DNA of 4,550 bases, taken from a virus (taxonomy: Duplodnaviria; Heunggongvirae; Uroviricota; Caudoviricetes). Below, one piece after another: positions 1-3,000 of the stretch. Where the stretch lies: IMG/VR virus record IMGVR_UViG_2698536372_000011; one strand, written 5' to 3'. The first letter of the stretch is position 1. The number at the start of each line of letters is the position of its first letter. The position numbers are program-made.

Positions 1-3000
1 CAGCCTTCAGGGAAAAATATCATCAGATGGCTGCTTAAAAAAAGAACAAATGGTAGTGTCCGCTATTGCCAGTACACCTCATGGTTTGTGAAAAACCACC
101 ACGCAGTTCGTCAGGCAAAGAGAAAGGCCAATATGACATACATGAAGGCGTATCAAAAAGCATGGAAAGAACACCGCGATCGATACCAACAAGACATGGA
201 AAAGCTTGAATCAGAAAACATGGAATTAAGACGAAAGCTCGGTGAAGCAAAACGAGACATTGATGCTTACAAGCGACTTTTTAATGGTGAAAGCCATGCT
301 TAGCCCATCCCAATCCCTTCAATACCAGAAAGAAAGCGTCGAGCGAGCTTTAACGTGCGCTAACTGCGGTCAGAAGCTGCATGTGCTGGAAGTTCACGTG
401 TGTGAGTACTGCTGCGCAGAACTGATGAGCGATCCGAATAGCTCAATGTACGAGGAAGAAGACGATGAATGAGTTAATAAATGGCAATGCCATCAAAATG
501 ACAAGCATTGAAATAGCTGAGTTGGTGGGTAAGCGTCATGACAATGTGAAACGTACCATCGAAACGCTGGCTAAAAATGGTGTTATCCGGCTTCCTCAAA
601 TTGAGGTTTCCGAAAGAATCAATAACTTAGGGTTCAATGTTCAGTACGAGCATTACGTCTTCGAGGGCGAACAAGGTAAGCGAGACAGTATTGTCGTTGT
701 TGCCCAGTTGTCGCCAGAGTTCACCGCTCGTCTTGTTGACCGTTGGCGAGAGCTTGAAGAAACTGCGGTTAATATCCCCAAAACGTTACCGGAAGCGTTG
801 CGCCTTGCTGCTGATCTTGCTGAGCAGAAAATGCAACTGGAAAACCAGCTCGCAATTGCCGCACCTAAAGTTGAGTTTGCCGATCGCGTTGGCGAGGCCA
901 GCGGAATTTTGATTGGAAACTTTGCAAAGGTTGTTGGTATTGGTCCAAACAAACTGTTTGCGTGGATGCGCGATCACAAAATCCTTATTGCTTCAGGTTC
1001 CCGGCGCAATGTGCCAATGCAGGAATATATGGATCGCGGCTATTTCACAGTGAAAGAAACAGCGGTCAACACAAATCACGGAATACAGATATCGTTCACC
1101 ACAAAAATCACCGGGCGTGGTCAACAGTGGCTGACCAGAAAGCTGCTCGATAACGGAATGCTGAAAGTAACAGGGGAGGCTGCTTAATGGCTAACCTACG
1201 CAAAGAATCTCGCGGCAGAGAATGCCAGGTACGTATTTACGGCATATGCAATGGCAATCCTGAAACTACAGTTCTGGCACATTACCGGATGGCTGGAATT
1301 TGCGGAACGGGAATGAAGCCTGACGACCTGATCGGCGCATGGGCTTGTAGCGCGTGTCACGATGAAATCGACCGACGCACCCATAACCTCGACAACAAAG
1401 ACGCCAGACTTTACCACCTCGAAGGCGTGATCAGGACGCAGGCGATACTGCTGAAGGAGGGGAAGATTAAGTCATGAACGAATATCAGTTTGTGCTTCCA
1501 TACCCGCCGTCGGTGAATACCTACTGGCGAAGACGGGGAAGCCAATACTACATCAGCGATAAAGGCCAGAAATACCGAAAAGACGTTCAGCAAATCATCC
1601 ACCAACTCAAGTTAGATATTTTCACCAAATCACGACTCCGCATCAAAGTAATCGCAGACGTTCCAGACTCCCGCCGCCGCGACCTAGATAACATCCTGAA
1701 GGGTTTACTCGACTCCCTTATCCATGCCGGATTTGCGGAAGACGACGAGCAATTCGATGACATTCGCGTAATTCGTGGTGTGAAAGTACCAGGCGGACGG
1801 CTTGGAATAAAAATCACCGAACTGGAGAACGCATGAACGCCACAATTCAAACGATACCAGAGCTTCTTATCCAGACACGAGGCAATCAGACCGAAGTGGC
1901 GAGGATGCTTTCCTGCGCAAGAGGAACAGTGCTCAAGTACAACCGAGACAGCAAAGGCGAGCGTCATGTAATAGTTAACGGCGTCCTGATGGTCAAACAG
2001 GGCAAGAGGGGAAGACGATGAGACTCGAAAGCGTAGCTAAATTTCATTCGCCAAAAAGCCCGATGATGAGCGACTCACTACTGGCCACAGTTTATTGGTT
2101 TTCGTAACTGAGTCATTTTATTATTTTATTGCAACTTTTAATCTTTTATAGTGCGAAATAAATGGAGCTGGCATTCATTTCGCACTTTATGTTTTTGTTG
2201 GACTTATGTTATTTTGATTGAATTCAATTCAGTTAAAAAAAGAAGGTGATTGCTCCATTTATAAATGAATAGTCATCCCCTGTCTTGAATTCTGATGTTA
2301 CTTTATTAAATGCTAGTGTGAAGGCTACAGGTGCATACCCAATTGTTGCGCCAACTTGATATTCATCAACAGTTTTGTTTAGCGATACTGTTGTTTGTTT
2401 CGTCTGTATTGTTTTTCCTTCGAGAGTATAGTTGCGATTGACATCTCGTCTTTCCATACCTGCAAAAATCTTGTATTTGAATCCGCTTGTATCGGACATA
2501 TGCATTAAACCACGGGGAGCCAGCAGACCAAAGCCATTATCCGAATTGAAGGTTTTATCATTACCAATGGCAATGGTTGCGCCATATGCTACATATTGAA
2601 ATAAGTTTCCAGTAACAGCAGAAACTTCAGGGTATAATCCAACATTAGCACCTAAAATATCCATACTTGGTGTCATGGATAGCATCCCTTTTACAGTATA
2701 ACCGTAGCGATTCTCTATTTGATCATCCCATGCATGATATTTTTCTGCCCCAATAATCTCATGAGCTTTATTTTGTACTTTCTGACCGCCTGCGTCGGGG
2801 CCAACAACACCTATGTCAGTACCTAATCGATAGCGAATCCAGTCATTCGCAAGGGAGTTCCATTCAATACCAGTGTGAGTGTATGCACTAAAAGCTCTGT
2901 CTCCAGTTACAGCTGTGTTGTGTCTTTTATTACTGCCTGATGGAGAGTAAATATCTTGCGCAATATGGAGAGATAATTGGCTCGAGTCTGAGATATCGTG

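What the first reader, a model, noticed from the sequence alone, without database searches (positions are those of the whole stretch)
2018..2107. Recombination scar: 29-codon remnant of a lambda-type Q gene marks the left edge of a module replacement
The ORF starting at ATG 2018 (overlapping the ninH stop, as Q does in lambda) begins with what I recall as the lambda Q N-terminus (MRLESVAKFHSPKSPMMSDS), then diverges and stops after 29 codons. An ancestral lambda-type Q appears to have been cut at roughly 2078-2095 and replaced by a segment carrying lpxR plus a different Q allele. This places a mosaic junction within a few codons and explains why two Q-related elements occur in one window.
Basis: partly seen in the sequence, partly recalled or inferred. 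Interest (0 to 1): 0.6.

Follow-up and report, generated by a model that had tools for sequence, protein, structure and literature searches.

The report
Leftover stub of lambda Q gene
The 29-codon ORF is a dead 5' stub of a lambda-type Q gene, left where a prophage swapped its late-gene switch for an lpxR gene plus a phage-82-type Q; it is real but ordinary and already annotated in public records.

Summary
Confirmed. Window 2018-2078 (61 nt) is identical to the first 61 nt of lambda and HK620 Q. Positions 2079-2095 still match at 12 of 17, and from 2096 all similarity is lost. The ORF stops at 2105-2107 and keeps only Q-lambda residues 1-20, with no DNA-binding body or zinc ribbon, so it is a pseudogene remnant.

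The same joint lies next to lpxR in all 620 complete E. coli genomes that carry this lpxR. It is also in about 60 viral and metagenome contigs and in the viable phage 434. That points to one ancestral event.

Phage 2B8, a 434 relative with an intact lambda-type Q, gives a "before" state. Against it, window about 2089-4403 is the replaced block: lpxR cassette, an 82-type rusA tail, ylcG, 82-type Q and its promoter region. Phage 434 has no 3' half of lambda Q, so this is a replacement and not an insertion.

The stub occurs behind either ninH or ninI. Crossovers must therefore have happened inside its 78 bp or less.

GenBank (434, CPT_434_64) and RefSeq (PGAP pseudogene) already label it a Q N-terminal fragment. 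Low interest, already known.

The parts
1833..2021 (+). ninH; its TGA stop overlaps the stub's ATG (ATGA)
   Evidence: Pfam PF06322, E = 2e-24; sequence
2018..2107 (+). 29-codon ORF: truncated 5' remnant of a lambda-type Q gene (pseudogene)
   Evidence: annotated as a Q N-terminal fragment in phage 434 and as an incomplete antitermination-protein pseudogene by PGAP; no Pfam hit
2018..2078 (+). block 100% identical to nt 1-61 of lambda and HK620 Q
   Evidence: 61 of 61
2079..2095 (+). transition zone containing the breakpoint: 12 of 17 matches to lambda Q; this variant is seen only next to lpxR
   Evidence: binomial P about 1e-4 to 7e-4; Fisher test against the head block P = 3e-4
2096..3516 (.). 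AT-rich lpxR cassette (35.7% GC against 48% for the nin region); among deposited phage records only the two phage 434 records (434 and 434B) match it
2151..2185 (.). strong hairpin between the stub and the lpxR 3' end, followed by a T-rich run on the + strand; terminator-like, possibly bidirectional
   Evidence: fold z = -3.3 (+ strand) and -4.6 (- strand); inverted repeat I2; not picked up by the simple terminator scan
2233..3192 (-). lpxR, outer-membrane lipid A 3'-O-deacylase
   Evidence: Pfam PF09982, E = 7e-40; annotations
3517..3534 (+). last 4-6 codons and stop of a phage-82-type rusA: second scar, at the right edge of the lpxR cassette
   Evidence: alignment with phage 82 and Lambda_4C10; BLAST matches begin at 3517-3522
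3531..3653 (+). ylcG-like small gene
   Evidence: annotations; alignment
3668..4357 (+). intact 82-type antiterminator Q, the working late-gene regulator
   Evidence: Pfam PF06323, E = 1e-91; the match to phage 82 spanning rusA tail, orf45 and Q (window 3522-4357) is 89.5% identical
4341..4369 (+). promoter-like site, candidate late promoter pR' of the 82-type module
   Evidence: consensus scan, 9 of 12 matches only; inferred
4403..4432 (+). intrinsic terminator-like hairpin plus T-run; homology to phage 2B8 resumes here, marking the right edge of the replaced block

Best explanation
The ORF at 2018-2107 is a non-functional 5' stub of a lambda-type Q gene. It marks the left joint of a module replacement. 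In an ancestral lambdoid phage, non-homologous (or microhomology-level) recombination cut Q between nt 61 and 78. It joined the stub to foreign DNA: an AT-rich lpxR cassette followed by the rusA tail, ylcG, Q and late-promoter region of an 82-type phage. The lost part of lambda Q, with its own promoter and Q-binding site, was replaced as a unit, so the phage kept a matched Q/promoter pair and stayed viable. Phage 434 carries this arrangement. The joint arose once and has travelled with lpxR ever since. The stub's 61-78 bp of surviving homology to intact lambda-type Q genes has since served as a crossover site. That has placed the lpxR/82-type Q module behind two different nin-region ends, ninH (this window) and ninI (434, O157 Sakai Sp3). 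The stub probably still gets translated by coupling to ninH, but the peptide has only Q-lambda residues 1-20 and cannot act as an antiterminator. Shown: the identity, the break position, the single shared joint, the replacement and the two left contexts. Inferred: the recombination mechanism, the order of events, translation of the stub and its inertness.
For: 61 of 61 nt and 20 of 20 aa identity to lambda and HK620 Q, then loss of similarity at 2096. Colinear phages without lpxR continue into an intact Q. All 620 E. coli genomes with this lpxR 3' flank have the same joint: 620 and 620. All 50 IMG/VR hits for the tail variant, plus 10 further contigs, have lpxR directly after it. The most diverged copy, L013 (lpxR 3.6% different), has the identical tail, 0 of 29 differences. 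Only two left contexts occur, with identical stubs. Lambda against 434: homology ends at Q nt 71 and resumes at Rz, with no Q 3' part. 2B8 against 434: flanks match at 96.5% and 97.7%; 671 bp of lambda-type Q plus pR' stand opposite 2306 bp carrying lpxR, ylcG and 82-type Q. The stub has no Pfam hit, whereas lambda, HK620 and 2B8 Q are PF03589 and the window's intact Q is PF06323. In Q-lambda, residues 61-207 form the DNA-binding body and zinc-ribbon arm, and residues 1-44 form the torus (PMC9388147). A laboratory precedent exists for this kind of swap: 434B replaced about 5.5 kb, including Q, the late promoter and the lysis genes, with DLP12 sequence (PMC9119081).
Against: The 5 mismatches packed into 2079-2095, against 0 in the preceding 61 nt, are not explained. 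No intact Q allele with this variant was found, so the exact break (2078/2079 or 2095/2096) and the parental allele are open. No intermediate was found, such as lpxR with a different left flank, so one event cannot be told from two. Nothing here tests whether the 29-aa peptide is made or is inert. Too few variants exist (4 SNPs across 63 copies) to measure selection.
Confidence: 0.9

Rival explanations
1. The 29-codon ORF is a maintained small gene. Its peptide (Q-lambda torus helix 1 plus part of the loop) would bind RNA polymerase near the RNA-exit channel, and would modulate transcription or interfere with the Q of superinfecting lambda-type phages.
For: The start codon, the ATGA coupling to ninH or ninI, and the reading frame are intact in all 63 copies examined. 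Q-lambda residues 1-11 contact the RNAP zinc-binding domain in the engaged complex.
Against: In Q-lambda that contact forms only after the body loads at the Q-binding element with NusA, and the stub lacks residues 25-207. Two of the four SNPs seen are non-synonymous (A7V, T24I), so there is no sign of constraint. Copies are so similar (0-1 differences in 90 nt) that an intact frame is expected anyway. The tail LLATVYWFS is read from junction DNA.
Confidence: 0.04
2. lpxR plus 82-type Q was inserted into Q rather than replacing it, and the 3' part of lambda-type Q survives further downstream.
For: None beyond the fact that the window ends 190 nt after the 82-type Q.
Against: In the complete phage 434 genome no part of lambda Q beyond nt 71 is detectable in the right arm. 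2B8 against 434 shows that the remainder of Q plus pR' is missing. lambda Q against the window gives nothing beyond 2088.
Confidence: 0.02
3. The joint formed more than once, or the resemblance to Q is chance.
For: None.
Against: 61 of 61 identity with E = 1.7e-30. The tail and flank are the same, apart from five scattered single-base variants and a one-copy ATTTTATT repeat in phage 434, in about 60 independent contigs and consistent with 620 genomes, across both left contexts.
Confidence: 0.01

Closest known systems
Phage 434 gene CPT_434_64, 'antiterminator-like protein, N-terminal fragment of lambda Q' (GenBank OL657226.1; Feiss et al. 2022, PMC9119081)
   Same: Same 90-nt ORF, same joint, and the same downstream lpxR, ylcG and 82-like Q; 99.5% identical over window 2007-4550.
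   Different: It sits behind ninI instead of ninH, and has one copy rather than two of the ATTTTATT repeat at 2125-2140.
PGAP pseudogene 'antitermination protein, incomplete, missing C-terminus' in EPEC E2348/69 (BQ9544_RS03840), and the unannotated equivalent in the O157:H7 Sakai Sp3 lpxR locus
   Same: E2348/69 has the identical ninH-stub-lpxR arrangement; Sakai has the ninI (pphA) version.
   Different: PGAP calls only 72 nt (24 codons). Sakai does not annotate it at all.
Phage 2B8 (NC_049952, Alegriavirus), with an intact lambda-type Q in the same backbone
   Same: Shares the ninG/ninI flank and the downstream terminator, membrane-protein, TciB and esterase flank with 434.
   Different: It has a full PF03589 Q and a lambda-like pR' (671 bp) where 434 and the window have the stub plus 2.3 kb.
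Novel joints and short conserved boundary sequences described for lambdoid mosaicism (HK97/HK022, Juhala et al. 2000; HK620, Clark et al. 2001). These references are from my own knowledge and were not read here.
   Same: An abrupt switch from high identity to none at a point unrelated to gene borders, with later spread by homologous exchange in flanking shared sequence.
   Different: Here the joint lies inside an essential regulator gene and is tolerated only because a complete alternative Q/promoter unit came with it.
434B laboratory recombinant (PMC9119081)
   Same: Q, the late promoter and the lysis genes were swapped as one block with a resident prophage, DLP12.
   Different: That exchange used homology at ylcG and Rz and left no truncated gene (notes).

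Membership tests
Lambda-type antiterminator Q (Pfam PF03589, Q-lambda) | Sequence descent from a lambda-type Q gene | tested here: met
   61 of 61 nt and 20 of 20 aa identical to lambda and HK620 Q; E = 1.7e-30
Lambda-type antiterminator Q (Pfam PF03589, Q-lambda) | Four-helix HTH body and zinc-ribbon arm (Q-lambda residues 61-207) | tested here: not met
   The ORF ends after 29 codons. It has no Pfam hit, whereas lambda, HK620 and 2B8 Q score E about 1e-56 to 1e-58. Domain map from PMC9388147.
Lambda-type antiterminator Q (Pfam PF03589, Q-lambda) | Complete N-terminal torus segment (residues 1-44) | tested here: not met
   Only residues 1-20 (plus A23 and T24) are retained
Lambda-type antiterminator Q (Pfam PF03589, Q-lambda) | Cognate lambda-type pR' and Q-binding element downstream | tested here: not met
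   2B8's lambda-like Q/pR' block matches the window only at 2008-2088 and 4404-4550
Lambdoid mosaic junction (novel joint from non-homologous recombination) | Abrupt change from near-identity to no similarity, not at a gene border | tested here: met
   100% to 2078, 12 of 17 to 2095, random after that
Lambdoid mosaic junction (novel joint from non-homologous recombination) | Each side has independent relatives in other phages | tested here: met
   Left side: E212, Gally, HK620 and others. Right side: phage 82 rusA tail, ylcG and Q. The lpxR cassette itself is seen among deposited phage records only in the two phage 434 records.
Lambdoid mosaic junction (novel joint from non-homologous recombination) | Same joint shared by descent across genomes | tested here: met
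   620 of 620 E. coli lpxR loci and about 60 contigs
Lambdoid mosaic junction (novel joint from non-homologous recombination) | A relative with the unreplaced state exists | tested here: met
   Phage 2B8
Moron (lpxR cassette) | Base composition distinct from the phage backbone | tested here: met
   35.7% GC against 48% and 45.7% in the flanks
Moron (lpxR cassette) | Own promoter and terminator, expressed from the prophage | tested here: inconclusive
   There is a hairpin downstream of lpxR. Promoter-like sites are no more frequent than in shuffles. Pch/Ler-dependent lpxR expression is reported in a review citing Ogawa et al. 2018 (PMC6393859).
82-type antiterminator Q (Pfam PF06323), for the intact gene at 3668-4357 | Full-length profile match and similarity to phage 82 Q | tested here: met
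   E = 1.1e-91 over profile positions 1-216 of 220. The match to X92588 spanning rusA tail, orf45 and Q is 89.5% identical.

The most novel reading that the evidence does not exclude
The stub is not just debris. It could be kept as a working adaptor: its 61-78 bp of homology to lambda-type Q genes lets the lpxR virulence gene and its 82-type late switch be captured by any lambdoid phage with a lambda-type Q. In addition or instead, its translated 29-aa peptide (Q-lambda torus helix 1) could bind RNA polymerase and interfere with incoming lambda-type-Q phages.
Probability: 0.05. Interest if true: 0.55.

Novelty: already known. Interest (0 to 1): 0.15.

Why it matters
It is a clean, precisely mapped example of how lambdoid phages exchange their late-gene switch as a matched Q-plus-promoter unit. 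It also shows how a virulence-associated gene (lpxR, a lipid A deacylase of EHEC and EPEC) became fixed to that unit. The stub is a reliable marker of a single origin for every lpxR-bearing prophage sampled here. Beyond that it changes nothing about how Q or lpxR is understood, and databases already label it a Q fragment.

Tried and rejected
1. Parental Q allele. I looked for an allele carrying the 2079-2095 variant. An exact-pattern scan of IMG/VR gave 50 hits, all followed by lpxR, with no intact Q. E. coli genomes gave at best 97.2% over 2018-2088.

2. lpxR with another left flank. I scanned metagenome and viral contigs with the hairpin pattern. All 10 new loci have the same joint.

3. Source of the cassette flanks. 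The only non-E. coli lpxR locus returned, a Citrobacter species at 73% aa identity, loses similarity right at the stop codon, so it says nothing about the flank.

4. Transposon-like ends or target duplications around 2096-3516. None were found. A 12-nt near-repeat (GATGATGAGCGA at 2062 and GATGATGAGTGA at 3492) is no longer than other chance repeats in the region, so I treated it as chance.

5. Rfam scan of the window. It gave only a sub-threshold STnc240-like hit on the terminator at 4364-4433.

6. PasD sRNA, reported near lpxR and Q. In E2348/69 and phage 2B8 it lies upstream of the sialate esterase gene, outside this window.

7. Selection on the stub. Too few variants exist to test it.

Full report
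**Observation.** The window contains an ORF from ATG 2018 to TAA 2105-2107 (29 codons, MRLESVAKFHSPKSPMMSDSLLATVYWFS). Its ATG overlaps the TGA of ninH as ATGA. I aligned it with lambda (NC_001416, Q at 43886-44509) and HK620. Positions 2018-2078 are identical at 61 of 61 nt. Positions 2079-2095 match at 12 of 17, with mismatches at 2079, 2082, 2089, 2091 and 2094. From 2096 identity falls to 14 of 42. blastn of lambda Q against the window gives 71 nt at 97.2%, E = 1.7e-30, and nothing else above noise. The only correction is that in lambda Q overlaps ninI, while the ninH-Q overlap is the HK620/HK97 arrangement.

**What surrounds it.** To the left lies an ordinary nin region: ninF, a Roi/Ant-like gene, ybcO/DUF1364, rusA and ninH. 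It is 97% identical over window 82-2090 to phages E212 and Gally. It is also colinear with HK620, HK97, HK022 and others, all of which continue into an intact lambda-type Q.

To the right lies an AT-rich stretch, 2096-3516, at 35.7% GC against 48% for the nin region. It carries lpxR on the minus strand at 2233-3192 (PF09982). A strong hairpin sits at 2151-2185 between the stub and the lpxR 3' end.

At 3517-3522, similarity begins to phage 82 and many other lambdoid phages. It covers the last 4-6 codons and stop of an 82-type rusA, then ylcG (3531-3653), then an intact 82-type Q (3668-4357; PF06323, E = 1e-91). The match to phage 82 across that stretch is 89.5% identical. So the lpxR cassette has a scar at each end: a 5' stub of lambda-type Q on the left and a 3' stub of 82-type rusA on the right.

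**Distribution.** Phage 434 (OL657226.1) has the same stub, lpxR, ylcG and 82-like Q, and is 99.5% identical over window 2007-4550. In 434 the stub follows ninI rather than ninH. Among 5,426 complete E. coli genomes, 620 carry the lpxR 3' flank. The same number, 620, carry the stub-lpxR joint at full length. Of those, 189 have the ninH version seen in this window; the remainder sampled, such as O157:H7 Sakai Sp3, have the ninI (pphA) version.

An exact-pattern scan for the tail variant found 50 viral contigs, every one with the lpxR flank directly after it. Ten more contigs found through the hairpin have the same joint, five of them with a single SNP in the stub. No intact Q carries the tail variant.

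The most diverged copy, L013, has lpxR 3.6% different but an unchanged tail, 0 of 29 differences. So the joint predates the diversification of these elements, and it arose once. The window itself is 100% identical to prophages of STEC strains, including O26:H11 strain FWSEC0001.

**Replacement, not insertion.** In the complete phage 434 genome, homology to lambda runs through ninI to Q nt 71 (lambda 43956). It resumes only at Rz (lambda 45966). No further piece of lambda Q is present.

Phage 2B8 (NC_049952) gives a sharper comparison. It is in the same genus as 434 and has an intact lambda-type Q (PF03589; its start is annotated 15 codons too late). 2B8 and 434 are colinear at 96.5% up to Q nt 71, and again at 97.7% from the point equivalent to window 4404. 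Between those points 2B8 has 671 bp: the rest of Q plus a lambda-like pR' region, 95% identical to lambda up to about 44584. Phage 434 has 2306 bp there.

In window coordinates the swapped block is therefore about 2089-4403. It ends at the terminator-like hairpin at 4403-4424, just downstream of a promoter-like site at 4341-4369. This fits what is known of Q proteins. Each Q loads at its own binding element and pause site at its own late promoter (PMC9388147). So a viable exchange must move Q and its promoter-proximal site together. That the promoter-like site is the real pR' is an inference from a 9-of-12 consensus match.

**Function of the stub.** Q-lambda residues 61-207 form the HTH body and zinc-ribbon arm. 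Residues 1-44 fold into the torus only after loading with NusA (PMC9388147). The stub keeps residues 1-20 and has no Pfam match, so it cannot be an antiterminator. The intact 82-type Q supplies that function. The viability of phage 434 shows the arrangement works.

The stub is probably translated by coupling to ninH or ninI. I did not test that. Across 63 copies there are four SNPs, two of them non-synonymous (A7V and T24I). That is too few to assess selection.

**A shown consequence.** The identical stub and right side occur behind two unrelated left flanks, ninH-type and ninI-type. These are the same two flanks that intact lambda-type Q genes have. Because the joint arose once, at least one crossover must have fallen between the point where the two flanks diverge (about 2017) and the break (2095 at the latest). 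That is inside the stub's 78 bp or less. The stub has therefore acted as a homology patch that moves the lpxR/82-type Q module between nin regions. This is an inference, but it is tightly constrained by the data.

**Unexplained.** Five mismatches are crowded into 2079-2095 and none occur in the preceding 61 nt (Fisher P = 3e-4). Matching 12 of 17 is itself more than chance (P about 1e-4 to 7e-4). There are three possibilities. The parental Q allele may have differed here and is unsampled. The joint may have formed at 2078/2079 in a patch of imperfect homology. Or later exchange with intact Q genes may have reset only the 5' part. The data do not decide between these.

It is also unknown whether the lpxR cassette joined the 82-type block before the Q break or in the same event. 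No intermediate was found. The one lpxR homologue outside E. coli that I retrieved (a Citrobacter species, 73% aa identity) shares no flank. I found no transposon-like ends.

**Comparison with what is known.** The feature is already recorded. The phage 434 GenBank entry annotates CPT_434_64 as an 'antiterminator-like protein... lambda Q... N-terminal fragment'. PGAP annotates an incomplete 'antitermination protein' pseudogene at this position in E2348/69 and many other genomes. The announcement paper for 434 does not discuss it.

Conceptually it is a textbook novel joint of lambdoid mosaicism. Here it lies inside an essential gene and is tolerated because a complete alternative Q/promoter unit came with the replacement. 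What this analysis adds is incremental: a single origin, complete linkage with lpxR in the data searched, both edges mapped against 2B8, a second scar in rusA, and use of the stub as a crossover site.

**Verdict.** The feature is ordinary and already annotated. Interest is low (0.15).

Noticed in passing
window 3517-3534: A second scar. The last 4-6 codons and stop of a phage-82-type rusA sit at the right edge of the lpxR cassette and overlap the ylcG start. The window also has its own intact rusA of another allele at 1474-1836.
   Followed up: partly
window 3459-3472 (A7G7 on + strand; C7T7 upstream of lpxR on - strand): The homopolymer pair varies in length among 64 related loci: A7G7 in 31, A7G6 in 18, A7G8 in 5, A6G6 in 4 and A8G6 in 1. 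It lies about 270 nt upstream of the lpxR start and about 60 nt upstream of ylcG. This may be real slippage or homopolymer sequencing error.
   Followed up: partly
window 2125-2140: ATTTTATT is present as two tandem copies here and in 60 of 64 related loci, but as a single copy in phage 434.
   Followed up: yes
window 2151-2200: A 13-15 bp hairpin (GTGCGAAAT...ATTTCGCAC) is followed on the + strand by TTTATGTTTTTG. It looks like a terminator facing rightward early transcription as well as the lpxR 3' end. Early transcripts must read through it, and antisense through lpxR, to reach the 82-type Q.
   Followed up: partly
window 4364-4433: A predicted short late-leader transcript (promoter-like site at 4341-4369, terminator at 4403-4432) gives a sub-threshold Rfam match to sRNA STnc240 (28 bits against a gathering score of 55).
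   Followed up: no
L071 (phage 2B8, NC_049952) 1262-1304: The RefSeq start of the 2B8 Q gene is 15 codons too far downstream. The lambda-type ATG overlapping the ninI stop is intact and the 5' sequence is 95% or more identical to lambda Q.
   Followed up: yes
window 3584-3667: The 82-type Q reading frame is open from GTG 3584 (257 aa), but homologues and annotations use ATG 3668 (229 aa). The upstream extension overlaps ylcG.
   Followed up: no
L004 (E2348/69) 3642-4004: In EPEC E2348/69 the rusA gene just upstream of ninH and the stub is annotated as a pseudogene with an internal stop, so that prophage copy is decaying.
   Followed up: no
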